NCBI GenBank assembly: GCA_016906335.1
Contig: JADEYG010000015.1
Location: forward strand, 620,001-684,000
Direction: 5' to 3'
Length of the DNA: 64,000 nt
Source of the DNA: Novakomyces olei
Taxonomy: Eukaryota
Every line of letters starts with the position of its first letter. Position 1 is the stretch's first letter. Shown in pieces: positions 22,486 through 55,370 of this stretch. The notes under the pieces were generated by a model. The model was not told the origin of the DNA. It was given only the letters and a program-made list of their open reading frames with translations, and searched no databases. Position numbers and translations under genes: made by a program.

Positions 22486-24787
22486 TCACCTTGATTTCTG
22501 CAGTCTGGCTTGATGAGCCCCTCTCCAGGCACTCCATTCTTCAAGAAGCCTATCGCGGTGAGGAATTGCGGTCAGTGTATCCTTGACATAAACACCTCTA
22601 AATATATCGAGATCAAGCAGCGCATTTACCAGGCCACTGGCATATAGACCGGCTACCGCAAGCCTCCAGACAAGAGCAAATGCGATTCCAGCCGCAATAC
22701 CCGCTACAACTTGTATCGTTGTATGATACGCCAAAACGACACGAGCCACGGAGACGCCTATAGTCAAGCCGAGAGCACAGGCAAAATAAACGAGCCCAGT
22801 TCCTGTTTGGAAAATGGAAAAAAGTCTTTGTGACTTTAATTGCGCTTGGACCGAATGAGCATCAGAGAGTTCCATCACGAAATACGCCAGGAAAAAGCCC
22901 ATAAACTGGGCGTGACTACTAGGCATTCCATAGCCATGACCTTGAAGTTGTGCGGGCCTTTCCGCCTTTATGAACCGTTTAAGAGCAAAATTAAACAGCT
23001 CACAGGCTACTTGCCCCGCGGCCATTAGCACGATCCTCATCTCTCGAGTCCATAGCGCTAACGTGCCATAAGCAATAAACAGGGCTTGAGGCACCATAGA
23101 TAAGAGAGCCATGACGTAAGCCAAGGTTGATGACGGGTCATACAAGACTTCAAATAAGGCTAAATGTTAGAACTGAATTGAGCCATATAAATTAGTCCAT
23201 AGATCAATTGCCATTTTTATTTTCATTTTCATTTCTTATTTTTACTTTTATTTTTTACTTTTTAAGTTTCAGTTTCAGGCTGTGCATCTTTCTGTGTATT
23301 ATTATTAAAACTTACAAAGTGGAACAAGGTTCTCCGTAGACCTTTTCTGCATCAGTTTCGGTGACGTTTGGAAGTTTAGATCTAAACAATTAGGGGAATC
23401 TTTCGTGCCAGCATATGTCTCTGCATTTAGCTGCTCTCCTTCCTTTTCACTACCAGTTCCATTCTGAGCTCGCCCATTATGCAAAACAGTCGTTCCTTCG
23501 ACTTTTCCGGTGAAAGTGTCCCGCTTTTCGCAAATATATTCCCGCACTATTCGTTCAAACGTACTCTTCCCAACGTCCATATGTTCTCCAGGCACGGTAA
23601 GTCGATGCAGCCTTCCGCCCATATCCAGTTCTTTTAATCCAAGCCAGTCCTCCTGGTAGAGAGGGTGCTCTTGCATTGGAACCATTTCCCCTTGCGCGTC
23701 TTCGTCATCAAACCAAGCTGATCCAGCTGGGCGTACAACTGTATCATTCTCAAACCTAATCAGCACAAGACTCTGCAAGGAGGCCAAATTCAATCTATAT
23801 TTGCGATTTTTCTCCTCATGTTCATTATTGATATCAGCCAGAAATTGCGAGTGTTCCAGGTAAGCGGCCATTTCACTAGTTTTACGGAAATACTGAGCCT
23901 GTATTAGATGAGATTGGATCCAAGGACGCCAAACTCCAGCTCGTATTAGCGCTCTAGCACGACGGCACCAAAACGATGCTTGATCATCACACTGAGGCAG
24001 ATCGTTTACTCCAAAATGCTGAGACCCCCAAGTTATGAGTGAGCGAACAGGCGGGTCGTTGCACCTTTCCACGTACGCACTAACAGTAAGCATTGCAAAT
24101 AAGAGGGCGAGTCAAAGATAACAGAATAAAACAGGGAAAAAAAGAGCAGTGAAGAAAAAAGGACAAGGAGAGAACGCAGTTATCCCTAAATACGATCAAC
24201 TATTCCTAAACACATCCATTATCCCTGATTGTGGCCCCATTCCTCTATAATACAGACTTTAAGGAGCCGTACGATGAAAGGCTCAAACGAGCGACGAGGG
24301 CAAAAAAGAAACGAGAATTAAATCAGAGACTCTTGAACAAAAACTGATTGAAAATTAGAGTAGACGGCGTAGAAGGTAGCAATCGGATTGAATCGATTAA
24401 GACCAAAACCAGGGACAGACAAGATCATCGAGAGCCAACGGCAATCTGCAATTCTTACCGTAAAAACTGGCCACCCTGACTGAACCCGATCGCATGGAAT
24501 CCGTTCTGCAGATTGGGGTCAGACTTCAACTGGGTACAGACTCCCTCCAATTGGGCATTCACTGAGCCCCAGAACCCAGCACGTTCATCGTCCTGGGCGT
24601 CGGCGTAGAGCGAACGAGTATAGCCGCCTGTAATATTGGCAATCTCAGATGCACGCTGTACCATTCCTTCTGAATCGTAAGTGTCACCTAACCCGTGCCA
24701 CAAAACGACGGCTGGTGCTTGAAAGCAGAGCGCGGTAGCGCGCACGCTGAGCAACACGAGCCAGAGCCATTTTTCCGCGTTAACCAT
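22486..24787 (-). CDS. pdf1: Palmitoyl-protein thioesterase - dolichyl pyrophosphate phosphatase fusion (pdf1-like)
   Basis: Exons 24787-24459, 24079-23316, 23159-22486. Signal peptide; PPT1 motifs VLWHGLGD, GFSQGG, ENDTVV, GEHM. Intron 23315-23160 (GTAAGT...TTCTAACATTTAG) joins in frame to DOLPP1 (SLFEVLYDP, KRFIKAERP, GMPSSH, RVVLAYH). Confidence 0.88.
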
Positions 24788-25781: not shown

Positions 25782-27955
25782 ATGCCTCCAGTTCCAAATT
25801 GTACGTCGCGACGTCGCTTTTGTTTCCTCAGAATTCTGTCTTCATCAGCCTCTGTCTCCAACTTTTGTCTTTGAACATTTATCTTTCAACATCTCTCTTT
25901 TAATTTCACTTTTCCCTTGTTGATTCGCACGGGTCCACTAACGCACTAGCGCTCTCAAATGTACGGCACATCGTCCTCGTGCTGTCCGGCAAAGGCGGCG
26001 TCGGCAAGTCCAGTGTGACAATGCAGCTGGCGCTTACACTGGCACGCGAGTCACACAGAGGCCGGCCGCTAAGAATCGGAGTTCTGGACATAGACTTGAC
26101 GGGGCCTTCGGCTCCGCGAATGTTTGGCCTCGATGACGAGGCCACTGTTTCGCGTGTCCGGCAGTCGAGTGCCGGCTGGATCCCCGTTTACGTGGATGGC
26201 GAGACGGCAATTGGCGTAATGTCTATCGGATTCCTTCTTGATTCCCGTGGCGATGCTGTTGTATGGAGAGGACCCAAGAAGACTGCCATGATCCGCCAGT
26301 TTTTGACCGACGTTGTGTGGGGCAATTTGGATTACTTGCTCATAGACACTCCGCCGGGGACGAGTGATGAGCATATTAGCGTTATCGAGACTCTGCTCTC
26401 GTACGAATTGCCGCCCTCTCGCTCTGGAACCAGTCTCGTTTCCGGAGCAGTGCTGGTAACGACACCCCAGCAAGTCGCTGTCCTCGACGTCCGGAAAGAA
26501 CTCGACTTTTGCCGTAAAGTCGACGTGCCCGTTATCGGGATCGTAGAAAACATGTCTGGCTACATTTGCCCTTTTTGTGCTGACTGTACAAACATCTTTA
26601 GCAGTGGAGGCGGTGAAGCAATGGCTCAAGAGTACAATGTGCCCTTCCTTGGCCGAGTGCCGATTGATCCAAAATTGGTGGAGTTGATTGAAGCCAAGGG
26701 AGAGGGTGGGGATAAGAGTCTGCACCTGCCGGACAGGTACAAGACGTTACAAATTGCTCCGATTTTTACAGGAATTACTACAGCAATCCGCACGTTTTTA
26801 CGCGATACTGACCCAAAACTGGTGGAAATTAAGGCATTCGAGGGCCACACTGACCGTGTCTGGCAGGCGGTTCAGCACCCGACACTGCCGCTGCTTGCCA
26901 CTGCCTCTTCAGACAAGACTGTACGCGTCTGGAACACAAAGACTGGGCAGCTGATTGCAATTTTAGAGTCCCAGCATAAAAGATCCGTTCGGTCTGTTGC
27001 CTGGCGGCCGAACCTTAACCAGAATAGCTCAACGACTACCCTGGCAACTGCCTCGTTTGATGGGACGGTAGCAATCTGGGAAAATGTTGAAAACGATTTT
27101 GAGCGAGCAGCAGAGCGGTTCGAGTGTATGGCTACTCTAGAAGGCCATGAAAACGAGGTTAAATCTGTGGCCTGGTCGCCCAGCGGATCATTGCTGGCAA
27201 CCTGTTCAAGAGACAAGTCCGTGTGGATCTGGGAGGTCTCTGGAGAAGACGAGGAGTACGACTGCCTGGCCGTCTTGCAGGAACATACACAGGACGTTAA
27301 ATGCGTTTGCTGGCACCCGCAAGAGGAGCTTTTAGCCAGTTGTTCGTACGATGACACTGTACGGCTCTGGCGGGACGATGGAGAAGACTGGACGAGTGTA
27401 GCTATTCTGCAAGGCCACAATTCAACTGTATGGAGCGTTGATTTTGGTCCGGATGAGACAAAAGAGTCTGTAAACACGTCTCCTACAAATGCTGCTAGAT
27501 TGGCCTCCGTTTCCGATGATGGCACATTACGGATATGGAGACGGCAAAAGGGCAAAGGCGGGCCCATAGCCGATGCCATTCCGAGTGTAATAAGACCCGA
27601 TTTGACAGAGGAATGGGAAGAGGAAGCAGTTCTACAGGTTAATAGCCCTCTGTACTCTGTCGCCTGGTCGAAACGGACGGGCCGTATTGTCTGTGCCGGT
27701 AGCGAGGGGATTTTATATGTATACGAAGAGAATACATCTGAAAATGAAAAGGAAGAAGTAGATTTACAAAACAAGAGTACAATTCACAGCGAAAAAGATG
27801 CTTTCGTTTCTACCTGGACACTTGTCGCCCAACTGCCTCGAGCACACGGAGTGTTTGAAGTGAATGGCGTCTCTTGGGGAATTGACGCCAACAAAAACGA
27901 GACTTTATACTCTGCCGGCGACGACGGTGTCGCCCGTGCTTGGAGAATAGAGTAG
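25782..27955 (+). CDS. CFD1-CIA1: Cfd1 (NUBP2 P-loop NTPase) - Cia1 (WD40) fusion, cytosolic Fe-S assembly
   Basis: Exon 1 25782-25800, intron 25801-25949 (GTACGT...ACTAACGCACTAG). [36 protein letters not shown]; then without a stop [46 protein letters not shown]. Confidence 0.93.
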
Positions 27956-31159: not shown

Positions 31160-34100
31160 TCATACATCTATATCACGCAGCTGGAGGACAGAATCAACGA
31201 TAAATCCGTCCACGCCGTAAGCATCTTGTAACTGCCGACTTGACTCGTCAAGGTTGCCTTCACCATGTGTTACAAGGATAAGACCTGCTTTTTTGATTGT
31301 ACGCATAAGCGCTGGAATACGGATCTGTTTGTCAGAAACAATAATTAAAACGGAAAAAAGGGAAAACAAAAAGGAACAATGGTTCGTAGACTGTCATACC
31401 TGAGACACAGCAGACGTGATTATGCCAATCAGATTATTTGTCCTCGCAAAGGATACTGCATGACGGACCGACATACACCGTTCACTCGCCTGATCAGTGA
31501 GCAGACGAAGCGCATGTGCACTGGCAACATCAGCGTCGTTCACATAGTTAGAAGGCTCGCCCAGCCGTGTTGGAATTCCCAGTTTTCTTGCCAAAAATAC
31601 AGCATCTGGATGGTTAGAGTAACTAGTTCAATAAAAGAAAGTAGACAGAAAAAACAATAGAAAAATAGAAAATAGAAAACTAAACAATAGAAATAAAATA
31701 AATACATAAAATATACATAAGACCAAATGTAATAGAAACAGAAACAATTGAAATTATTAACGTACAATTAGGCTGTTTCCAATTCAGAGCAAGACAAACG
31801 TCTGGGTTACAGGATGAAAAGAAAACGCTGCGAGCATTCGAGTGGTTATGTGAGTAGGCAAAGACGTCCGCCAAAATACTATCAACCAGTACGTTAATAT
31901 CGAGTGTTGAAGTTATTCCCAAGAGCCTTTGCTCTGCCGGAACAGGAACCACAATCTGAGCGTGAACGTGAATGCTCTCCGGTAGCAATTCAAGCAACTG
32001 TGCCAAAGAACAATAAGTCTGTGTGACGAGACTCTGTGATCTTCCCGGTAAAGTTTCCTTGCTTATGCGATCCAATCTTTCCTGTTGTGACTCGCTGGCA
32101 CAAATAATACAAAACTGTTTAAAAGTTACATCACTAACTGCCAAATCCAAATGATCAGTGGGCAGCCACCATGCAGGGTAAACAACGGGCACATTGTCCT
32201 TTGTTATTTGAACAACAGCCCTAATGTAACTGCCGCTCAGTGAAGAGGCAGTAACAAAGCTCTCACTGAATTGTGAGGACGTGTTTGCGTTACCATTATT
32301 ATTATTATTATTGATGTTGTTGTTAGCATTGTTATCGCCAGACGCGGTTTGAAACGAATGAGGCATGGAAAGAGGCATACTTGGTAAAGCAGCATTTGAC
32401 GTCATAGGCGGCTGTTTGACCGTACGAGTAGAAATCCAATAAGTATCAATTTTGCTCCCATACTCTGTATTTTGCAGGCCATGAAAAGGAGTTATAATCT
32501 TGTACTCGAAAGTTAATTCCCCAGTAACTTCCACTAGAGGGTCAAACAGGGAACACACAAAAGTGCCCTGATGATTAGAGGCAAACCATCCAGTAGGCAC
32601 TGCTCCTCTGGCGACTAGCCGTGACCCGAATATAGGAAACACTTCAAACTCTATAGAAAAAAGTGATAAATCGTCAACCTGAAAGGTGACTGTTTGGCCT
32701 TCGTCAGGCAGCGGAAAAATAACGTTCTGTGGAAGAATGCTCGCCAGAGTCTCGCCCGTTTTGCTCGGGTACCGGGAAATAACAGACAGTTTGCTCGACT
32801 CGAAAATTTTAATGCTCTGTGAAGCAAAATCAACCTGAGCCTGTGTTCGTTTGAAACAGTCTGGCTTCAGTGTCAATTGAACAAAGGTTTTTCGGTCCAA
32901 GAAATTGTGGCCATAACTGCGTACGGGGATAATGGGTGGTGGCAGGAGAAGATCAGGGATGATTTCGCCGTCAGTATTGGCGCCTAGCTGTGCAGCACTA
33001 GGCATGAACTCTCTACGCTCTGGGTCCTTGGGGTCAAGGTTGGAGTCTAACCCATCGGGACTAGTACTAGCTTTACTAGCATTAGTATTAACTGCCGGCT
33101 CTTCAGACAGTCCAATTCCCGCGGTGGGACTAGCGTTCAAGAGCAGATTGAGACAGGTCGGGTGGCCCTCCCAGGCGGCATGATAAGCAGGAGAATGCCC
33201 ATCTTCATCGACAGCATCGAGCTTGCATCCATGCTCAATCAGCTCTCGTAACACTTCGACTTTTCCCTCAGCAGCAGCGAAAAACACGGGGGTCCAAAGG
33301 TTGAAGGAGTCGTATTCCTCCAACGAGGCTCCGTACTCTAAAAGTAGGGTTATAAACCCTAAGTATCCAGCACGGGCCACTATATGTTGCGGGAATAGGC
33401 CCTCCGTGTTTCGTACAATTTTAGCACCCGACTGCAACAACAATTGTGTTGCCTGCAAATTGCCACGCTGACACGCCATACCGAGTGGAACGTAATCCGC
33501 CTCATTGCGTGGATTCACATCAGCCCCGTGCAAAAGTAAAAGCTGTACGCATGCAGTTAGTCCGTATAGTATAGCATAGTGGAGCGGCCGGTACAGATTT
33601 TGGTCTAGTGAATTCACATCTGCTCCATGGGCAAGTAAGATCTCGGCGCATTTAGTATCACAGGTTTGCAGGCAAGCGTAGTGCAAAGCTGAACGGCCAT
33701 ACGCATCTTCCTGCTCTACGGGGCTGAGACTGGCAAAGAACTCGACAAGTTCTGGTCTCTGAGCAATAGTGGCCTCGTGCAACATTGTACGGCCAGATAT
33801 ATCATCGCGAAAAGAAAGATCAATTTTTAATTCAGTGGCCATTTCACGTACACAGACAGCGGGAACCCGTTTAATGGCATACAAAAGGCCTCGCGAAAGG
33901 ATGACACTGCTCTTGAGGCTTGAGGCGTCGTCACGTAAAAGTAGCCTCCTTACGTCGTCCAGACGGCCACTAGAAATAGCATTAAACACCTGTGTCTCTA
34001 ATTCGTCAATCGCATTCCGCGGCTGAGAGACAATGTTCTTGTAAAGACGGACATCTTCGCCGTTCGCCCACGCTTCGAGCTGCAAAATGGCGGAAGTAGT

Positions 34101-34720
34101 AGTGTCGACAAGAAGCGACAGGGTATCACGATTGAAGCAGGCTCGTACCTCGACCTGGCGAGATAGGTACAGTTCTTTCATGTGACTCTTGCTCCGTTTG
34201 TCCCATTTTTTAAGTGCTTTGTAAAAGCCGGTAGCATTGAGCTCAACAAATTGCTGTAGCTTATTCAAGTCTTTCTCAAATTGCTCATAGGCTTCACGGA
34301 TAACGACAAGAGAGGGTAAAATGCGCGCTTTTGCGGGGTCTTCAATACTTTGCTGGAAAAGGCGTCTTTGCTCTTCCAATATGTTGAGGCGTGTCCGCAG
34401 CTCGGTTTCTCGCAATTCATAAAACTCGTTTACCTTATCAAGCTCGCGTTCCAGCTTGAAGAAAAAGGTTGCTCTATTGTCTTTGAGCGCGTCTCCTCTG
34501 GCCGGGTCATCTAGGGCATTTATGATCTTTTTGAGTGCCTTGTAGTTGATATAAAAGGGAGCAAATTCGGGCAATTGCTGCCGTGCGAGGTTTTTACCAA
34601 ACTTCCTATCAAATGTTAGTGTACCGTGAAGATTTCAGATTTATTTATTTTATTTCATTCCAAAATTCTTTTTCAATCCAGCCTTCCACAGTGTTCGGCC
34701 GGAAAAAAGTGGCCGTACAT
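31160..34720 (-). CDS. PHO81: SPX-ankyrin-GDPD-like CDK inhibitor Pho81/Nuc-2
   Basis: MKFGK start with the ATG split by intron 34718-34606; SPX (INYKALKK, FFFKLERELDKVN, LNATGFYKALKKWDK); ankyrin repeats; IPDLLLPPPIIPVRSYGHNFLD; LNWKQPN. Confidence 0.9.
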
Positions 34721-35153
34721 GGCAAGGGAAGCTGCGACTCCCCTGGGATTGCTCCTTCACGTTCTCTTTGAGCAAGGTCACATGCACAATAACCAAAAGG
34801 CAGTGGCACAAGAGAGAAAAATGGGTAATATTAACAACAAAATTTCCAGATAGGTTCGGCCAGACCACCGAGCGCACTAGTCAGATTCCACTAGTACAAT
34901 ATCCTGTTGAAATTCCAGTGAAAATCAGCCTTGCATGTCGTCCGCCTTGGAGTAAATAGTACAACAGTACTTTGCATTTTTATTATTTTTGAATATTCCT
35001 TACTCTGGCGTTATTCTGCATACGCCATTATCCACTCTAACGCTCAAACTATGGTGTTGCGCCGCACGTGAAACATTTACTGGCTATTATTGGACTTTAG
35101 TCGCCCTATTATCGTACCTAAACCTTACTTATAGTGTGTATCGCTAAATAAAA

Positions 35154-35310
35154 ATGAAGTACCAATATTGCGAGACGATCTTAGACTATTTATTACATTA
35201 GGATCACGAATTTTGTAAGTCCTCCTCAAGTCTAACCCTGGCTAACCCTAACATAGATAGATTCATGGACGTTCGCCATGGTTTCTGGGTCTCGTCCCTA
35301 CGGCAAATAA
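35154..35310 (+). CDS. Candidate spliced 23-aa microprotein MKITNFIDSWTFAMVSGSRPYGK
   Basis: AAAATG context; exons 35154-35158, 35202-35214, 35257-35310; intron 2 is canonical (GTAAGT...GCTAAC...TAG, 42 nt); intron 1 is weaker (GTACCA...TAG, 43 nt). Confidence 0.4.
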
Positions 35311-35576
35311 TGTATACATACATTTCTCCAAGGTACTGGCGCCTTTTTGTACAAATTTAATCTAAACAATTTGATTCAATTTAATTTATGCGTAAACTAT
35401 TCAAAGGCACAACGGCCTATACTATTTATCTCTACCTCGCATATCTCTGGACGCGCCTTATCTTCCATCTCCAAGTTTCGTGACAAACCTGGTTCGATAT
35501 TACAATATATAGAGTACGTTAGTCTGTACATTGACTGATGACAATTATATAGCCTTACACAATACCGCGCGTCCAC

Positions 35577-38078
35577 ATGGATAAAGAACTGGACGCCCAT
35601 CGTGTCTGGCTAGATGGCTGCTGGGACTTTTTTGTAATACTTTAAGCTCTTCAATTCTAACTTTGATAGCATCATGGTACTCGAAACCGCAAGTCTAAAC
35701 TACTAACGGGCAAGGCCATGCTGGAGCGATTAGACAAGCCAAACTTATGGCGCCAATTCTCGTGGTCGGATGCCATTCCGACGAAGACATCGAGCGTAAT
35801 AAAGGCCCAACTGTCATGAAACAGCCAGAGAGGTATTTGCTTTATTAGACGTTCGTTCTCTAAGTCTAAAGACTCGCTGCAATTGCCGCTTGCCGCTGGG
35901 TGGACGAAGTAGTCCCTAATGCCCCGTACGTCACGCAGGTAGAATGGATGGATCGGTATCATTGCATGTACGTCGTACACGGTGACGATGTTACTACCGA
36001 CGCTGCGGGCAACGATACTTATGCTCAATTGAAAAAGTTGCACAGGTATATTGACGCGTTTAATACGTGTACGCTTTGCATTCATATACAGGCTACGGTG
36101 TCCCTTGTCGTCATCTACTTTACAGTTTTCGACTTGCTTTTGCTAGTTTGCAGTTTACTGTCCTCTATACGCTATTATTTCCTAGTATCGAGCGAACAAA
36201 CGAATTGATCTCGAACAAAATATCATGCTTTTCGTGTTTAATTGCCACATACTTACTTTTGTGATCTAACATACAGGTACAAAGAATGCAAGCGTACTAT
36301 TGGGATTTCAACAACCGATTTAGTAGGCCGAATGCTGGTGGGAACGAAGGAGCACCATATATCGCCCTTATCAAATTTTGTAACGCGACAGAGCACTGTA
36401 TCGGTATTTGAAGATTATGCAAAGGCGAGTGATGCAGTCGCGCCTTGGGCAACCCTGTTTCGCATTGATCCTCTCAGCGATTCTCCTCCACAAGTCTTAG
36501 TGGAAGGCGTGCATCCTTCAGAGAGTTGTGTTCCGATATTTGTATCAGGAGCATGGGATCTGTTCTCTCCAACCCATATTGATTTCTTACGTCGTGTCCA
36601 TGAAGCTCATACAAATGCGTTTGTTGTTGTGGGCATAGAAGATGATCGGGTATGTTTGTCAAATTCCCTAATTTTGTCAAGTACATTTGATTTTATCATC
36701 AAATTTATCATAAATAAATGAATTTCAGTCTTCCAAGTTCTATCTTTATTAATTTTTTCCGGCTGCCTATTGTCTCTTTGCGAATGCTGGGCTTTACTTG
36801 CCATTTGTTTATATTTCGTTCTTACTTTTTTGCATTCAGTTTGAATATCAATTTGATTATACTTTCATCTGTTTTGTATTATCATTCTTGATAATTCTTT
36901 ATTCGGTTTCGGTGAAGTCAGTCTTATGTTATCCTCTTGACATTGTCTCCTTGAAACTCTTTTCTTGTTTATTTACCTCATCATCTAATCCGTAGACAGT
37001 CAATGGCCATGAAGGCTTCAATTTCCCTATAATGAACCTTTACGAACGTACGCTCTGCCTTCTACAATGTCGTTATGTGTCTGCTGTTGTTATGGGAGTC
37101 CCGCGTAAGTTGGATCCGGCTATTCTTGCCTCATTACCCAAAGATTTCCGTCCGCGTTATATTTACCGACCGGGCGTTGACACGGCAATTGCCACTGGCT
37201 CAGTTGCTGAACAAGACTTGCGGTTCAATGACGTCGATAATGTCCGTACAATAAATGATCTGCAGTTCAATACGAGCAGCAGCCTTATTGTTCAGCGAAT
37301 AATGGACCGTCGAACGGAGTACGAGTTGCGACAGGCAAGAAAGACGGCTAAAGCTGATCACGAACAGAGACTAAAAGCCGAGGCGGCTAAAGAAATCCCT
37401 ATTAGCAATGCAGCACTGGCATCAGCGGATAGTAGAGGCCGACTGATTGTTATTGAGGGCCTCGATCGCAGTGGAAAATCGTCCCAGGCCGCCCGATTAC
37501 AGGAAGCGTTAACGGTAAAAGGTACCCAAGTCAAATCTTACAAGTTTCCTGATCGCGGAACAATTATGGGTAAAATGATCAATGAGTATTTGCAAATGAA
37601 GGCAGAGATGGAAGATCATGCAGTTCATTTGCTGTTTGCGGCCAACAGATGGGAACGAGTGGGCGATATTTTACGAGATTTGCAAGGGGGTACCACAGTG
37701 ATTGTGGACAGGTTTTTCTATTCTGGTATTTGCTTTTCTGCGGCAAAGCAGCTTTTAAACGGCCAGCCGGCACTCGACTGGGACTGGTGCAAAGCACCAG
37801 ACAAGGGCTTACCCATCCCTGATGTTATCTTGTTCCTCAATGTTTCTCCACAAGTTCAGCGGGAAAGAGGAGGGTATGGACAGGAAAGGTACGAAACACA
37901 GAGCCTGCAGGAGAGGGTACGCACAAACTTTGGGAAAGCTCAGTCAGACTTTGAAAAGCGTGGCGGGTTATGGTGCGAAATTGATGCTAATCAGTCAATG
38001 GATGCTGTTACTGGCCAAGTTGAAAGGGCGGTAACCTTGTTGTTCGAAGAGGACCCTGGACCACTGACGAGATTTTGA
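35577..38078 (+). CDS. ECT1-CDC8: Ethanolamine-phosphate cytidylyltransferase (Ect1) - thymidylate kinase (Cdc8/Tmp1) fusion
   Basis: Exons 35577-35633, 35670-35676, 35715-35832, 35872-36045, 36277-36649, 36996-38078. Ect1: WLDGCWDFFHHGH, NKGPTVM, VVHGDD, KRTIGISTTDLVGRM, GAWDLF, PIMNLYER. In the same last exon, dTMP kinase: RGRLIVIEGLDRSGKS, KFPDR, HLLFAANRWE, VDRFFYSG, GYGQERYE. Confidence 0.9.
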
Positions 38079-38756
38079 TCTGATCTGTAGATAGCAGGTA
38101 TAGTATTTGTATTGTTATCAGAGAATAACAAGCGCTTTTTTGTGTCTCTTTCAGACGTATTCAGAAATTAATAGTTTGTTAATATTTATTTATTTAGTTT
38201 TTTCTTTCTTTTTTTCCTTCTTCCATTTCTTATTTCGTTTTTTTTTTTTTTTTTTTTTTTTGATTAAGTACGTGTATTACATACGGCCACCACCGACACT
38301 CTTATAGAATTTGACCAGAATAGTAACATATAAATATTGCCATCCGATTAAATGCAAAACAACAGGTATGCAAAAATGTTTAATACGAGTTTGCTGTTAT
38401 CGGGGACATATTCTCAAAAAGAAAATACATTAAAATACATAATACTACAATAAAATAAACGTCGAATTTGCAAATGATGGATGCACTGCTTGAACTTGCT
38501 TTTGAAACTTTTGCCAAAGAAATGCACCAGTGAATCTGAACTCTTTTTCTTTCATTTCCATTTTATTTTCATTACCCTCCAATTCCCTCCCTCCATTCTG
38601 TCCTTCGCAAAGGATATTATTTGCTCATATTATTAGCATTATTGCCATAATTATTAAAAACAGTTGATTGTGCAATTCTTCCTCTTTCCCTGTCTCTGTC
38701 ATGCATGTTACCCAATCTTCTTTTGAATCTTCTTTTCCAATTTTCTTATTAACTCC

Positions 38757-50715: not shown

Positions 50716-53700
50716 TGTTGGAATATGTTGAAATACATCTAAATATGGGCCAAACCTAATTATTATTTATGCAACTTATACACACTATTGCTTATGAAGC
50801 CTATACTCACATACAATTATTTATATAGGTTGTAGCTAGAATTAGTAAATTTAACACAAAAGTTCAACAGGTTATGAGCCTGGATCGTTAGCCTTCAGAG
50901 CCAACAAAAATTTTTTGCTATCCAAAAAGCACTATCGTTTAATTAATTCTGTTCTCCCTTATCACCTGACAATCCTGTCATAATGGAAACAGACGCACCA
51001 CTGAATATGCCTGCTCAGCCTCAAGGAAATAGCAGCTACTCTGCTCAAACAGCCCCTACGAAAATCTCTTTTCAGAAGCTCCGAGGCTCTGAAAACTACG
51101 ATATATGGGCGCAGAACATGAAGGCCCATCTCAATGGGCTTGGCTTGTTTGGTTACGTCTCTGGCCGAATTAAGGAGCCAGAGAAGAAAGTCAAGGAAGT
51201 GAAGGACGAAAAGACGGCCGAGATCGAGGACGACACGGCGTCTATCCTCTCCGACGACGATTACGAGGATGTAAGCGATGAGCTAGCCACCTGGAAGCGC
51301 AACTGCTCCCTAGCTCTAAGCTACATCTTGAGTAATATATCTGTTGAAATCAACAGACGTGTGAAAAGACTTACAAGTCCCAAGGAAGTTTGGAGACTTT
51401 TGAAAAGGGAATATGCGCAGGCAGGTTTCTCCTACGTCGGTACTTGCTACCAAAATTTCTTCAGCCTGAGACTCCCCAGTGAACAGGCTAGAACTCCAGA
51501 GGAGTACTGCCGTAAGTTCGTCGACCGCCTAGAAACCTTTGAGTCTGCAGGGGAAAAGGTCGGAAGATATACACAAATTTATACTTTCCTTACTGGTATA
51601 GAAATGGAGTATAGTCAGTTTGTCCAAATACAAAAAGACACCTACGACGTAAAGAACCCACTAGACCTTGACGTGATAATAGAACGCTTTCTAAATCACA
51701 GTCGTGGCCGGGTTGCAGACTCCGAATTGGCATTAGTCGCCAAAGGAGCCAACTACAAGAAAAGGGACCAGTGCAGTTTCTGCAACAAGACTGGACATCT
51801 CTCGGAAAATTGTTGGAAAAGGTTCCCCGAAAAGAGACCAGGAGTTACAAAAAGGGGGCCGAAGGAGGCGACCAAGACGTTTGTTGCCTCTGCGCAAGTT
51901 TCTTCTTTTACGGCAGTGCCAAATACAACGGCATGGATTGTGGACTCAGGTGCTACACAGCACATGTGTAACAGTCCAGCTTGGATTACGAACCTTAAGC
52001 CCACGAACAATCAGTGGGTGGAGACGGGGTCAGGCAAGACTCCGGCCCTAGGAGTTGGCAACGTCACACTCAATGTGCGCAAGCCAAGTGGTGTGGTAAC
52101 GCAACTCACATTTGGCAACGTACTTTATGTGCCAGCTCTGCCCATCAATCTTCTCTCCATGACAATACTTGTCGAGCGAGGTCTGAACTTTGAGATACGC
52201 TCTGAAGGGCCTTTGGTCAGACACGCAGGAGAAGATGAGGTACTTACGAAACTAATCAGTTATAAGGGCCACTGGATGTTGGATTGTATTGGTCAACCGA
52301 CAAGCAAAAACCAGTCCAAAGACGAAGCAACAGCCCTTATCGTAGCCACAGAGAATGTCTGGCACAAGCGTTATGGTCACGCTTCGGCCAAAACAATCTC
52401 TCAGACGGCAAACCATGTTATAGGCATGGACATTGCCCCGGCATTAGAGCCGGAGGGTGCATGTACAGTCTGCGAACTCTCCAAGTCGCACAGGACAGTA
52501 CATCGCCAGACACTGGAGCGAGCTACCGAGAAGCTCGACCGAGTCTACATGGACTTAATGGGTCCAATGAGCCAAATATCCAGAGACGGATACCGCTACG
52601 TAATCATCTTGACCGATGAAGTCAGTCGTTTTCGCTGGATCATACCTTTGACCTCGAAAACAGCTAGCTCAGTTCTTTCGGCAATAAAGCTCTGGACTGA
52701 ATTCATCAAGAATTACTTCAAGGCAATGCCAAAGTCCATTCGCACAGACGGCGGTCTTGAATTTACCTCTGCTCAACCCTGGCTTACATCACTGGGAGTT
52801 AAAATTGAAAACACCGTGCCATATACGCCTGAGCAAAATGGAATGGCAGAGCGTAGCAACGGGCTAATAAGTGAAAAGGCCAGGGCACTCAGCATCGGAG
52901 GATGTTTGAAGGAAGACATGTGGTATGCAGCTATGGAGACAGCTACATATCTCCTCAACGTACAATTCACCAAAACGCTGAACATGACACCTCATGAAGC
53001 ACTTTATGGGACACTGCCACGAGTGGACCACATTAAAGTGTATGGATGCAGAGTATATGTCCACATCCCACATGAAAAACGTGTCAAAAGCGACAAACTA
53101 GGCAGTCGTGCACAGATTGGCAAGCTGGTTGGTTACGAAAGCCATACCATTTATAAAATCCAGCTGCCAAGCGGCCAAACGACACGGTCAAGTCACGTCA
53201 GGTTCGATGAAAACACCATCGATGACTACACCGGCAACAACATCAGCAGCCCACCAAACTTTCAGGTGCCTGATGAAGAAAATGCTGCCTTGTCCCCACT
53301 CCTGACACCGCTGCCGTTGCAGCAGCCGGAGGGTGAGGACAGTGATAAAGTCACTATCACCGAAGGGCCGCCGACAACGACAGCAGCGGACAGGAGTGAG
53401 GAGGACTCATCAAACAATGAAAAAATCCAACAAGCTAGCAACACTCACGCTGAGCCGGAGCAAGCTAACAACACTCACGCTGAGCCGGAACAGCAACTGA
53501 CAATAATTAGTGAAGCACCTGTGCCGAGCCTGCGTCGGTCAGCACGTCTAAACGAAACGCAGAAGTCTCTACTTACTGTTGCTCATGCAGTTTACATAGA
53601 GCCGCAGACTCTCCGAGAGGCACTCGAGTCCCCACAAGCTCGGGAATGGACCGAAGCTTGCCATGCGGAACTCAAGTCGTTAGACAAAAACGAGACCTGG

Positions 53701-55370
53701 ACGTTAGTGAACAAGTCCGACATTGAAAAGGGCAAGCACGTCTTAAAAGGCAAATGGGTCTTTAAAATAAAGAGAGACACAGAAGGCAATGTGCAAAAAT
53801 ACAAAGCAAGATGGGTTGTAAAAGGTTATTTGCAAAAGGAAGGAATTGATTACCAAGAGACCTTTGCGCCTGTAGTACATACCGCGACGTGGAGAATGGT
53901 ATTGGCCATTGTCGCATTCAAAGATCTGGAATGTGACCAGATGGACTTCGAAACCGCTTTTCTGAACGCACAAGTACAAGAAGAAGTGTACGTCGAACAA
54001 CCTGTCGGCTTCGAAACCGGAAAGGACCAAGTATGCAAGCTTCGCAAAACATTGTATGGACTAAAACAGTCTCCACGCGAGTGGTACAAATGTCTGCGCC
54101 AGATGTTCAGGCAGCTTGGGTTCATTCCCCTTAAATCCGATAACTCAGTATTCGTCCGGGACGAGAATGAAATAATTCTCGCCCATACAGACGATTTGCT
54201 GGTCATCGCAGCTACAGAATCAAAGTTAGCTGACATTAAAAAGGAAATTAAAACGGCTTACGTAGCCAAGGACCTCGGTCCGGCGAACCTTTTCGTCGGA
54301 ATACAAATTGTACGAGACAGAAAGCATAGAAGCATAGAGCTTAAACAAGAACACTATGTCACTAATATGCTTGAACGCTTCGGAATGATGGACTGCAAGG
54401 CCATCGAAACCCCAATGGCCGAGGATAGAGAGGCCATTGGTGGACAGCCCGAGTCAGAGCCGACCAAAGAGATGCAAACGCAGTACCAGCAACTCATAGG
54501 TTCGCTGCTCTTTGCGTCGACTCAGACGCGACCCGACATAGCCTACGCGGTTAACACCCTGGCTCGACATATGCACCGGCCAAGTGAAGAGCACTTGACT
54601 GCTGCCAAAAGAGTCTTGAGATATCTAAAAGGAACAAAAACTTACAGTATCAAGTATAGATTCAGCAAGGACAACATGGACCTAAAGGTCCATACGGACT
54701 CGGACTGGGCAGGCGACCCAGACACCAGACGGTCATGCTCTGGTTTCATACTCTTGGCCGGTGGAGGACCTGTGTCGTGGAGATCAACTCTCCAAACGAC
54801 AGTGGCTCTCTCCTCCACTGAGGCCGAGTATGTTGGCTTGTCGATCAGTGGCCAAGAGGTGCTGTGGGCCCAACAGCTCCTCTTGGAACTGAACTACAAT
54901 GAGGACGACAGATTGCCTATGATTGTCCTGGAGGACAACCAAGGCGCTATCGCCCTCGCCAAGAACCCGCAATTTCACCGAAGGACAAAACACGTAGCCA
55001 TCCGATGGCACTTTGTCCGTGAGCTAACGGAGTCAGAAAGAATAAAAATCAAGTACATACCAACCGCTCGTATGGCAGCTGACGGCCTTACAAAACCGCT
55101 CCGCAAGCTACTGTTTAAAAACTTTACAAAGTTAGTTGGAGTGAGCGAATAAAGTAAGTAACCTTACCACGTGATCCGCGCATACAGGCTTACCGTGCCC
55201 GCCGCCTGGGAGGGTGTGTTGGAATATGTTGAAATACATCTAAATATGGGCCAAACCTAATTATTATTTATGCAACTTATACACACTATTGCTTATGAAG
55301 CCTATACTCACATACAATTATTTATATAGGTTGTAGCTAGAATTAGTAAATTTAACACAAAAGTTCAACA
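50716..55370 (+). mobile_element. Intact Ty1/copia LTR retrotransposon
   Basis: Two 154-bp LTRs that read as identical (50716-50869, 55217-55370; TGTTG...CAACA), 5-bp TSD AATTT (50711-50715, 55371-55375), PBS GGTTATGAGCC at 50870, PPT GGGAGGGTG at 55208-55216. Confidence 0.98.
50983..55152 (+). CDS. Copia gag-pol polyprotein, single ORF (1389 aa)
   Basis: Zn knuckle CSFCNKTGHLSENC, protease WIVDSGA, WHKRYGH...CTVC, integrase DLMG/RTDGG/NGMAER, RT KARWVVKG...LYGLKQS...HTDD, RNase H DSDWAG/EAEY/EDNQ/ADGLTK; PR-IN-RT-RH order. Confidence 0.97.
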   Translation: METDAPLNMPAQPQGNSSYSAQTAPTKISFQKLRGSENYDIWAQNMKAHLNGLGLFGYVSGRIKEPEKKVKEVKDEKTAEIEDDTASILSDDDYEDVSDELATWKRNCSLALSYILSNISVEINRRVKRLTSPKEVWRLLKREYAQAGFSYVGTCYQNFFSLRLPSEQARTPEEYCRKFVDRLETFESAGEKVGRYTQIYTFLTGIEMEYSQFVQIQKDTYDVKNPLDLDVIIERFLNHSRGRVADSELALVAKGANYKKRDQCSFCNKTGHLSENCWKRFPEKRPGVTKRGPKEATKTFVASAQVSSFTAVPNTTAWIVDSGATQHMCNSPAWITNLKPTNNQWVETGSGKTPALGVGNVTLNVRKPSGVVTQLTFGNVLYVPALPINLLSMTILVERGLNFEIRSEGPLVRHAGEDEVLTKLISYKGHWMLDCIGQPTSKNQSKDEATALIVATENVWHKRYGHASAKTISQTANHVIGMDIAPALEPEGACTVCELSKSHRTVHRQTLERATEKLDRVYMDLMGPMSQISRDGYRYVIILTDEVSRFRWIIPLTSKTASSVLSAIKLWTEFIKNYFKAMPKSIRTDGGLEFTSAQPWLTSLGVKIENTVPYTPEQNGMAERSNGLISEKARALSIGGCLKEDMWYAAMETATYLLNVQFTKTLNMTPHEALYGTLPRVDHIKVYGCRVYVHIPHEKRVKSDKLGSRAQIGKLVGYESHTIYKIQLPSGQTTRSSHVRFDENTIDDYTGNNISSPPNFQVPDEENAALSPLLTPLPLQQPEGEDSDKVTITEGPPTTTAADRSEEDSSNNEKIQQASNTHAEPEQANNTHAEPEQQLTIISEAPVPSLRRSARLNETQKSLLTVAHAVYIEPQTLREALESPQAREWTEACHAELKSLDKNETWTLVNKSDIEKGKHVLKGKWVFKIKRDTEGNVQKYKARWVVKGYLQKEGIDYQETFAPVVHTATWRMVLAIVAFKDLECDQMDFETAFLNAQVQEEVYVEQPVGFETGKDQVCKLRKTLYGLKQSPREWYKCLRQMFRQLGFIPLKSDNSVFVRDENEIILAHTDDLLVIAATESKLADIKKEIKTAYVAKDLGPANLFVGIQIVRDRKHRSIELKQEHYVTNMLERFGMMDCKAIETPMAEDREAIGGQPESEPTKEMQTQYQQLIGSLLFASTQTRPDIAYAVNTLARHMHRPSEEHLTAAKRVLRYLKGTKTYSIKYRFSKDNMDLKVHTDSDWAGDPDTRRSCSGFILLAGGGPVSWRSTLQTTVALSSTEAEYVGLSISGQEVLWAQQLLLELNYNEDDRLPMIVLEDNQGAIALAKNPQFHRRTKHVAIRWHFVRELTESERIKIKYIPTARMAADGLTKPLRKLLFKNFTKLVGVSE

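What the first reader, a model, noticed from the sequence alone, without database searches (positions are those of the whole stretch)
35577..38078. Ect1 - thymidylate kinase fusion: a phospholipid enzyme joined to a dTTP-pathway enzyme
Seen: the last exon (36996-38078) runs without stop, intron or frameshift from the Ect1 C-terminus (...RRTEYELRQARK...KAEAAKE) through a ~14-aa linker (IPISNAALASADS) into a full dTMP kinase starting RGRLIVIEGLDRSGKS. The kinase has no in-frame Met of its own and there is no room for a promoter. Known: in S. cerevisiae and S. pombe these are separate genes, and S. pombe has other fusions of unrelated proteins (pdf1, Hal3-thymidylate synthase, Rsm22-Cox11). I know no description of this pair. 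Inference: either a bifunctional protein linking CDP-ethanolamine synthesis to dTDP supply, or a processed polyprotein.
Basis: partly seen in the sequence, partly recalled or inferred. Interest (0 to 1): 0.85.

Follow-up and report, generated by a model that had tools for sequence, protein, structure and literature searches.

The report
Ect1–thymidylate kinase fused gene
A fungal gene joins, in one reading frame, a complete enzyme of membrane-lipid synthesis to a complete enzyme of DNA-precursor synthesis; the join is real and shared with one distant relative, but nothing shows that the two activities cooperate.

Summary
A six-exon gene (35577-38078, + strand) encodes 603 residues: a full ethanolamine-phosphate cytidylyltransferase (Ect1/Pcyt2 type, residues 1-376), a 13-residue linker, and a full thymidylate kinase (residues 390-603). 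All of the junction lies in the last exon, an open frame of 360 codons. Unfused Ect1 of Protomyces and Neolecta ends where the linker begins. S. pombe Tmp1 starts where the kinase begins. It is not an assembly error: a contig from a run of another study bridges the junction without a difference. One unnamed protein, P0001, has the same junction at 53% identity with a shorter linker. The kinase halves are 59.5% identical, less than between two Schizosaccharomyces species (72%), so the fusion is old and maintained. Among 409 stored proteins only P0001 matches both halves. Six of nine literature searches looked for the pair, and none describes it. Most likely it is a bifunctional chain of two independent modules. 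RNA evidence, a search for a second kinase gene and any test of cleavage were not possible. It is a new domain combination of two ordinary enzymes, of moderate interest.

The parts
35577..35633 (+). Exon 1, start ATG to the residues just before the HxGH motif (57 nt)
   Evidence: Gene model. The translation is collinear with the N-termini of Protomyces and Neolecta Ect1. Donor GTAATA.
35670..35676 (+). Exon 2, a 7-nt micro-exon supplying His-His-Gly of the HHGH motif
   Evidence: It is flanked by introns of 36 and 38 nt, each GT..AG with CTAAC 12-13 nt before the acceptor. Without it the HxGH motif and the frame are lost. The alignment with four Ect1/Pcyt2 proteins is gap-free here.
35715..35832 (+). 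Exon 3, first cytidylyltransferase domain
   Evidence: Weak PF01467 match on this piece alone (E 0.18). tblastn of Neolecta Ect1 residues 16-126 maps to 35714-36097.
35872..36045 (+). Exon 4, first cytidylyltransferase domain
   Evidence: PF01467 CTP_transf_like, E 9.6e-8, 32.7 bits against a cut-off of 21, on this exon alone.
36277..36649 (+). Exon 5, with the RTIGISTT motif, the inter-domain segment and the start of the second cytidylyltransferase domain (SPTH in place of HxGH)
   Evidence: Best named matches are Protomyces lactucae-debilis (45%) and Neolecta irregularis (39%) ethanolamine-phosphate cytidylyltransferases. Alignment. Pfam finds nothing on this piece alone.
36996..38078 (+). 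Exon 6: end of Ect1, linker, whole thymidylate kinase and the TGA stop (38076-38078)
   Evidence: An open frame of 360 codons. It is preceded by a 346-nt intron ending in CTAAT(N6)AG.
37395..37433 (+). Linker, 13 residues (model residues 377-389)
   Evidence: It lies between the end of homology to unfused Ect1 (model residue 376) and the first residue that aligns with S. pombe Tmp1. P0001 lacks 14 columns here. pLDDT is below 50 for ORF residues 132-143.
37434..38075 (+). Thymidylate kinase module (model residues 390-603). The P-loop is at 37458-37481.
   Evidence: PF02223, E 4.8e-40. Human TMPK 1e2d, E 4.9e-49, and yeast 1tmk, E 8.5e-41. 47% identical to S. pombe Tmp1 residues 2-194 of 210. 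Folds with block-mean pLDDT of 58-94, mostly above 80, in the alpha/beta order of a P-loop kinase.
34635..35576 (.). About 940 nt between the start codon and the divergently oriented SPX-ankyrin-GDE1-type gene. Presumed shared promoter region.
   Evidence: The ORF 31680-34634 on the minus strand carries SPX, ankyrin and C2_GDE1 domains. The promoter role is inferred.

Best explanation
This is a genuine, evolutionarily maintained gene fusion. One mRNA of six exons is translated into a 603-residue chain. In it a complete Ect1 (CTP + phosphoethanolamine -> CDP-ethanolamine) is tethered by a short flexible linker to a complete thymidylate kinase (dTMP + ATP -> dTDP). The kinase has lost its own start codon, so it can be made with its P-loop only as part of the longer frame. 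Each module keeps its own catalytic motifs and most likely works on its own. The fusion most likely arose by loss of the stop codon and spacer between two neighbouring genes in an ancestor of this lineage and was kept because both enzymes are needed in growing cells. Shown here: the continuous frame, the completeness of both halves, the conserved junction in a second organism, and the independent read support. Inferred: a single transcript, no cleavage, independent catalysis, and the way it arose.
For: 1. The frame is open for 360 codons across the junction. The six-exon model gives a 603-residue product with canonical GT..AG introns.
2. The Ect1 half is complete. It is 45-46% identical and collinear with Neolecta Ect1 (model 9-370 against 3-358 of 363) and Protomyces Ect1 (model 9-376 against 8-363 of 367), and 41-44% identical to a Candidozyma and a fish enzyme. 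The HHGH and RTIGISTT motifs are present.
3. The kinase half is complete: PF02223 positions 1-182 of 185 and S. pombe Tmp1 residues 2-194 of 210. The P-loop, the FPDR, LLFxANRWE and DRx motifs and the RGxYGxERYE lid align with human TMPK.
4. P0001 is 350 residues from an unnamed assembled run. It covers 95% of the last-exon frame at 53% identity with the same end-to-end junction and a linker 14 columns shorter.
5. The two kinase halves are 59.5% identical, against 72.4% for S. pombe and S. cryophilus Tmp1. The two carriers are therefore far apart, and the fusion survived that divergence without a stop.
6. A 702-nt contig of run X2 (a different study from X1, the possible source) covers 36844-37545 with 0 other letters and 0 gaps.
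7. No in-frame ATG lies between 37302 and the P-loop.
8. In the predicted structure the kinase is well folded and the linker is disordered.
9. GC3 is alike in the parts: 0.44 in exons 1-5, 0.45 in the Ect1 part of exon 6 and 0.48 in the kinase.
Against: 1. There is no RNA evidence, so one transcript is inferred and not seen.
2. No whole genome is held, so I could not ask whether a second, stand-alone thymidylate kinase or Ect1 exists.
3. Only one other carrier is known, it is seen only as its last-exon frame, and its DNA could not be fetched. Selection on the junction therefore rests on two sequences.
4. The conserved Met at model residue 346, 44 residues before the kinase, could start a kinase-only product from an internal transcript.
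5. The second cytidylyltransferase domain has SPTH where relatives have SxGH or HxGH and was not detected by Pfam in pieces.
6. The kinase has DRF where most relatives have DRY.
7. The two pathways share no intermediate, so no selective reason for the fusion is evident.
Confidence: 0.75

Rival explanations
1. Processed polyprotein. The chain is made as one and then cut in the linker into free Ect1 and free thymidylate kinase, as with known fungal tandem proteins.
For: Fungal tandem proteins that are cut after synthesis exist. S. pombe Rsm22-Cox11 and Arg5,6 are cleaved at internal sites by the mitochondrial processing peptidase (passages of PMC8734313). The linker is predicted disordered, hence accessible.
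Against: The documented cases in that paper are mitochondrial and depend on import. Here the cytidylyltransferase fold starts at about residue 9, leaving no room for a presequence, and neither enzyme family is mitochondrial (established knowledge). The linker differs in length and sequence between the two carriers, so there is no conserved cleavage motif.
Confidence: 0.07
2. The fused frame exists, but the kinase is also, or mainly, expressed on its own. An internal promoter in the unusually long intron 5 (346 nt) or in exon 6 would allow translation from Met 346 or from the first Met of exon 6.
For: Introns 4 and 5 are 231 and 346 nt, against 36-39 nt for the other three. An in-frame Met at 37302 is conserved in P0001.
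Against: That Met lies in a helix conserved in all unfused Ect1 proteins, so Ect1 alone explains its conservation. A product starting at the first Met of exon 6 would carry a broken half of a cytidylyltransferase domain. No RNA data bear on it either way.
Confidence: 0.12
3. Artefact: a mis-assembly, or a sequencing error that removed a stop or an intergenic spacer.
For: None was found.
Against: A contig of a second study is identical across the junction. A relative at 53% identity has the same junction.
Confidence: 0.01
4. Functionally coupled enzyme. The tether serves joint regulation or localisation of membrane-lipid and DNA-precursor synthesis, or pyrimidine nucleotide balance.
For: The fusion has been retained over a divergence larger than that within Schizosaccharomyces. 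Other cytidylyltransferase-like domains joined to P-loop kinases are common (clusters with PF01467 plus PF01583 or PF13521).
Against: In those known pairs the two domains act on one pathway (established knowledge). Here they do not. There is no sign of cell-cycle promoter elements: one ACGCGT in the gene, and 16 in the window against 11.1 +/- 3.5 expected. The closest named relatives manage with separate genes.
Confidence: 0.12

Closest known systems
Ethanolamine-phosphate cytidylyltransferase (Ect1 / Pcyt2, EC 2.7.7.14) of Neolecta irregularis (P0290, 363 aa) and Protomyces lactucae-debilis (P0289, 367 aa)
   Same: Residues 1-376 are collinear with them at 45-46% identity. They share the two tandem cytidylyltransferase domains, HHGH, the RTxxISTT motif and the C-terminal charged helix.
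   Different: Those proteins stop after the C-terminal helix. Here the frame runs on into a kinase. The second domain has SPTH instead of SAGH or SPGH.
Thymidylate kinase (Tmp1 / Cdc8 / DTYMK, EC 2.7.4.9): S. pombe P0113, human 1e2d, yeast 1tmk
   Same: Residues 390-603 match over the full length, with the P-loop, the DRx motif, the lid and the thymine-binding residues conserved.
   Different: It has no start codon of its own. Its N-terminus is attached to Ect1. It has DRF instead of DRY, and a 7-residue insertion after the SAAK motif that P0001 shares.
Schizosaccharomyces Hal3-thymidylate synthase fusion
   Same: In an early-diverging ascomycete, a housekeeping enzyme of one pathway is fused to an enzyme of dTMP/dTTP supply. 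A thymidylate synthase domain at the C-terminus of Hal3 in the genus Schizosaccharomyces is mentioned in a table note of PMC9604783.
   Different: Both partners are different: PPCDC with thymidylate synthase there, Ect1 with thymidylate kinase here. There is no homology between the fusions.
Processed mitochondrial tandem proteins (S. pombe Rsm22-Cox11, Arg5,6)
   Same: Two complete, unrelated or sequential proteins are encoded in one frame (PMC8734313 passages).
   Different: Those are imported into mitochondria and cut by the processing peptidase at an internal targeting-like junction. Here there is no presequence and no conserved junction motif.
Bifunctional nucleotidyltransferase plus P-loop kinase enzymes (CoA synthase PPAT-DPCK, NadR, APS kinase fusions)
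   Same: The same two fold classes are joined in one chain. Atlas clusters with PF01467 plus PF01583 or PF13521 were the nearest non-kinase look-alikes (scores about 0.80, leads only).
   Different: In those the two domains catalyse consecutive steps of one pathway (recalled knowledge). Ect1 and thymidylate kinase share no substrate or product.

Membership tests
Thymidylate kinase (Pfam PF02223) | Profile match above the curated cut-off over the whole domain | tested here: met
   137.6 bits against a cut-off of 27, profile positions 1-182 of 185.
Thymidylate kinase (Pfam PF02223) | P-loop GxxxxGK(S/T), the DR(Y/H/F) arginine, the lid arginines, and the thymine-stacking Phe and Arg of the LLFxANRWE segment | tested here: met
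   All align with human TMPK 1e2d in the printed alignment and with S. pombe Tmp1. Tyr of DRY is Phe here. Which residue does what is recalled from the structural literature.
Thymidylate kinase (Pfam PF02223) | dTMP kinase activity | not testable with these tools
   Needs an enzyme assay or cdc8 complementation.
Ethanolamine-phosphate cytidylyltransferase (Ect1/Pcyt2) | Two tandem cytidylyltransferase domains, collinear with known members over the full length | tested here: met
   Model residues 9-376 align with four Ect1/Pcyt2 proteins at 41-46% identity without large gaps. 119 of the 120 listed hits to exon 5 carry PF01467 alone or with PF06574, the remaining rows being the same family.
Ethanolamine-phosphate cytidylyltransferase (Ect1/Pcyt2) | N-terminal HxGH and RTxGVSTT signature motifs | tested here: met
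   HHGH (spanning exon 1, the micro-exon and exon 3) and RTIGISTT (exon 5) are present. PF01467 on exon 4, E 9.6e-8.
Ethanolamine-phosphate cytidylyltransferase (Ect1/Pcyt2) | Second-domain HxGH-type motif | tested here: inconclusive
   SPTH here, against SAGH (Protomyces), SPGH (Neolecta), HPGH (Candidozyma) and HIGH (fish). Pfam found no family on exon 5 alone.
Processed tandem (polyprotein) precursors of fungi | N-terminal targeting presequence | tested here: not met
   The catalytic fold begins at about residue 9, as in unfused cytosolic relatives.
Processed tandem (polyprotein) precursors of fungi | Conserved cleavage site at the junction, and cleavage itself | tested here: inconclusive
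   The linker is not conserved between the two carriers. Cleavage cannot be tested here.
Sequential bifunctional nucleotidyltransferase-kinase enzymes | Both domains act on consecutive steps of one pathway | tested here: not met
   The domain identities place them in the Kennedy pathway and in dTTP synthesis, which share no intermediate (established biochemistry).

The most novel reading that the evidence does not exclude
The fused gene is the only thymidylate kinase of an unannotated, deep-branching ascomycete lineage and is translated as one uncleaved chain. Its retention reflects a real functional coupling: common dosage or cell-cycle control, or co-localisation at the ER and nuclear envelope, of the rate-limiting step of phosphatidylethanolamine synthesis and the essential dTDP-forming step. 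Membrane and DNA precursor supply would then be tied together physically.
Probability: 0.12. Interest if true: 0.6.

Novelty: new variant of a known kind. Interest (0 to 1): 0.4.

Why it matters
Both enzymes are textbook housekeeping proteins, and this combination was not found elsewhere. Among 409 proteins fetched in four large searches only P0001 matches both halves, and none of the six literature searches for the pair describes it. It serves as a shared derived character for placing an unannotated fungal lineage and the organism behind P0001. It also warns that guilt-by-fusion function prediction would wrongly link phospholipid and dTTP metabolism. It is a natural test case of whether an essential kinase tolerates, or profits from, permanent tethering to an unrelated enzyme. 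It does not open a long-standing question.

Tried and rejected
1. Whole-genome search for a second thymidylate kinase or Ect1: no genome is held. Within the 64-kb window there is only this one locus for each (tblastn).
3. RNA evidence: no RNA holder was listed among the 4 runs, so nothing can be said on expression. Run X4 laid nothing and X3 laid only 36758-36977.
4. Scan of metagenome contigs with the two-sequence alignment: 594 pattern matches. Only 3 encode a relative, and all 3 are distant kinase-only matches (28-36% identity, query residues 138-312). No fused locus was found.
5. Representative library: 9518 proteins at E <= 0.001, 150 listed. I scanned 36 of the 150 with Pfam. These were all but four of those of 297 residues or more; P0002, P0206, P0252 and P0277 were left out. 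0 of 36 carry PF01467. P0001 itself is not a representative there, so fused forms can hide inside kinase clusters.
6. Word-indexed searches: 1 of 120 listed and 1 of 20 span both halves, P0001 both times. 0 of 120 listed Ect1 hits carry PF02223.
7. Local blastp of both halves against all 409 stored proteins: 140 match the Ect1 part, 269 match the kinase part, and only P0001 matches both.
8. Atlas look-alikes: scores of 0.79-0.81, which are leads only. No cluster carries PF01467 with PF02223.
9. MluI-box (ACGCGT) enrichment as a sign of G1/S control: 16 in the window against 11.1 +/- 3.5 expected, and one in the gene, inside intron 4. Rejected.
10. Hidden intron at the junction: with a relaxed donor/branch/acceptor pattern there are 60 candidates in exon 6. 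None has the CTAAC/T branch plus spacing of the real introns, and all would delete conserved coding sequence.
11. Literature: nine searches. Six looked for this pair and none describes it. The search for the S. pombe systematic name of ect1, which I recalled, found 0 papers. The search for pdf1 found 0 papers. Supplementary tables of the gene-fusion surveys listed were not seen and could hold the pair.
12. The organism was not identified beyond this: its closest named Ect1 proteins are from Taphrinomycotina at 45-46% identity.

Full report
**Observation**

The window holds, on the + strand, an open frame of 360 codons from 36996 to the TGA at 38076-38078. Pfam places a complete thymidylate kinase domain (PF02223, E 4.8e-40, profile positions 1-182 of 185) at ORF residues 153-339. 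Solved structures agree: human TMPK 1e2d at E 4.9e-49 and yeast 1tmk at E 8.5e-41. The same frame's residues 2-109 match the C-terminal part of human ethanolamine-phosphate cytidylyltransferase 3elb (E 2e-9).

**Gene model**

Using GT..AG borders and homology I built a six-exon model:
- Exons: 35577-35633, 35670-35676, 35715-35832, 35872-36045, 36277-36649 and 36996-38078.
- Size: 1812 nt including the stop, giving 603 residues.
- Introns: 36, 38, 39, 231 and 346 nt. Four of the five have CTAAC or CTAAT 11-13 nt before the acceptor.
- Exon 2 is a 7-nt micro-exon that supplies His-His-Gly of the HHGH motif.

The model is supported by a gap-free alignment of that region with four Ect1/Pcyt2 proteins. 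An independent tblastn of Neolecta Ect1 maps to exons 3-4, 5 and 6 in order.

**Both halves are complete**

Model residues 9-370 align with residues 3-358 of the 363-residue Neolecta Ect1 (45%). Model residues 9-376 align with residues 8-363 of the 367-residue Protomyces Ect1 (46%). A Candidozyma enzyme and a fish Pcyt2 give 44% and 41%. The unfused proteins end a few residues after the point where the linker starts here.

Model residues 386-585 align with residues 2-194 of the 210-residue S. pombe Tmp1 (47%). The fission-yeast protein's first residues sit exactly at the end of the linker. So this is an end-to-end fusion: the whole Ect1, then 13 residues (37395-37433), then the whole kinase minus its start codon.

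The kinase keeps the P-loop, the FPDR, LLFxANRWE and DRx motifs and the lid. DRY is DRF here. Ect1 keeps HHGH and RTIGISTT. Its second domain has SPTH where relatives have SAGH, SPGH, HPGH or HIGH.

**Not an artefact**

Four runs were laid on 35500-38300:
- X1 may be the source of the window. It covers the stretch in one contig without a difference.
- X2 comes from another study at about 4x word depth. It gives eight contigs, all identical to the window. One of them (702 nt) covers 36844-37545 and so bridges the junction.
- X3 covers only 36758-36977.
- X4 laid nothing.

**Conservation**

The last-exon frame was searched against the 5.8-billion-protein collection. There were 1040 hits at E <= 0.001, of which 120 were listed. 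One, P0001 (350 residues, unnamed, on a 3200-nt contig), covers 95% of the query at 53% identity and 371 bits. The next best hit scores 256 bits and is a doubled kinase of Volvox.

P0001 starts at the first Met of the equivalent exon and has the same junction. Its linker is 14 alignment columns shorter. Between the two carriers, the Ect1 part of the last exon is 48.8% identical and the kinase part 59.5%. S. pombe and S. cryophilus Tmp1 are 72.4% identical. The two carriers are therefore more diverged than those two fission yeasts. The fused frame has stayed open with all motifs intact, which argues for maintenance by selection. The argument rests on two sequences only.

**Distribution and novelty**

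No other fused form turned up:
- 0 of 120 kinase hits apart from P0001.
- 0 of 19 further hits to the Ect1 tail.
- 0 of 120 listed Ect1 hits carry PF02223.
- 0 of 36 long representatives carry PF01467.
- In a local blastp of both halves against all 409 stored proteins, only P0001 matches both.
- A scan of metagenome contigs gave three distant kinase-only loci.

The closest named Ect1 proteins are from Taphrinomycotina (Protomyces, Neolecta) and are unfused. The window's own protein is not in the collection. Six of my nine literature searches looked for this pair, and none describes it. I saw only listings for most of these papers, and passages of two. Supplements were closed. An InterPro architecture query could not be run, so prior annotation somewhere is not excluded.

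**How it most likely works**

The structure prediction of the last-exon frame used a six-row alignment and reached a mean pLDDT of 65. It shows:
- a well-folded kinase, with 10-residue block means of 58-94, mostly above 80, from residue 150;
- a long Ect1 C-terminal helix at residues 95-131;
- a stretch with pLDDT below 50 at residues 132-143, which is the linker.

The partial cytidylyltransferase fragment is poorly modelled, as expected for a fragment. This fits two independent modules on a flexible tether.

No in-frame ATG lies between 37302 and the P-loop, so a kinase with an intact P-loop needs upstream coding sequence. I therefore read it as a bifunctional chain (confidence 0.75).

The rivals are:
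- A cleaved polyprotein. The documented fungal precedents are mitochondrial and cut by the processing peptidase. Here there is no presequence and no conserved junction motif. Confidence 0.07.
- Additional kinase expression from an internal start at Met 346. Introns 4 and 5 are unusually long, but that Met is conserved in unfused Ect1 too. Confidence 0.12.
- An artefact. Confidence 0.01.

A true functional coupling is the boldest reading that remains (0.12). The two pathways share no intermediate, I found no cell-cycle box enrichment, and relatives live with separate genes.

**Context**

The gene is flanked upstream by a divergently oriented SPX-ankyrin-GDE1-type gene and downstream by a convergent Ser/Ala/Gly-rich ORF. 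The same window holds a second single-frame fusion, Cfd1 with Cia1. This suggests that fused genes are a habit of this genome, as they are in fission yeast (for Hal3-thymidylate synthase).

**Verdict**

It is a real, conserved and apparently undescribed combination of two ordinary enzymes. It is a new variant of a known kind and of moderate interest.

Noticed in passing
window 25904-27955 (+): One uninterrupted frame of 683 codons joins a Cfd1-type P-loop NTPase to a Cia1/CIAO1-type WD40 propeller. Residues 16-264 match Chaetomium Cfd1 6g2g at E 2e-96, and the CPFC motif is present. Residues 309-615 match 3fm0 at E 9.5e-74 and 2hes at E 6e-69. Both are parts of the cytosolic iron-sulfur assembly pathway. 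The frame has no Met near its start, so a first exon lies upstream. From memory, S. pombe has a gene annotated as a ParA-family ATPase / WD-repeat iron-cluster-assembly fusion; I did not test that. One literature search listed nothing on such a fusion by title or abstract.
   Followed up: partly
window 31680-34634 (-): A 984-codon frame with SPX, ankyrin repeats and a GDE1-type C2 domain (a Gde1-like glycerophosphodiesterase, itself a phospholipid-turnover enzyme). It is transcribed divergently from the Ect1-kinase gene across about 940 nt. A catalytic GDPD domain was not seen in this frame and may lie in a further exon.
   Followed up: no
window 35670-35676 (+): A 7-nt micro-exon between introns of 36 and 38 nt, required for the HxGH motif of Ect1. 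Gene finders would easily miss it.
   Followed up: yes
window 50947-55152 (+): A 1401-codon open frame of a copia-type LTR retrotransposon (gag, integrase, RVT_2), apparently intact.
   Followed up: no
window 23305-24111 (-): A palmitoyl-protein thioesterase frame (PF02089, E 1.8e-56, profile positions 89-254 only). I did not check whether it is fused to a dolichyl-pyrophosphate phosphatase, as I recall for S. pombe pdf1.
   Followed up: no
window 38230-38262: A run of about 30 T in the 3' flank of the gene. Contigs of run X1 break near 38134-38171 and reads seem cut at 38172-38300.
   Followed up: no
P0002 (Volvox carteri protein, 546 aa): The best non-fused hit carries two thymidylate kinase domains in tandem (two matched stretches).
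   Followed up: no
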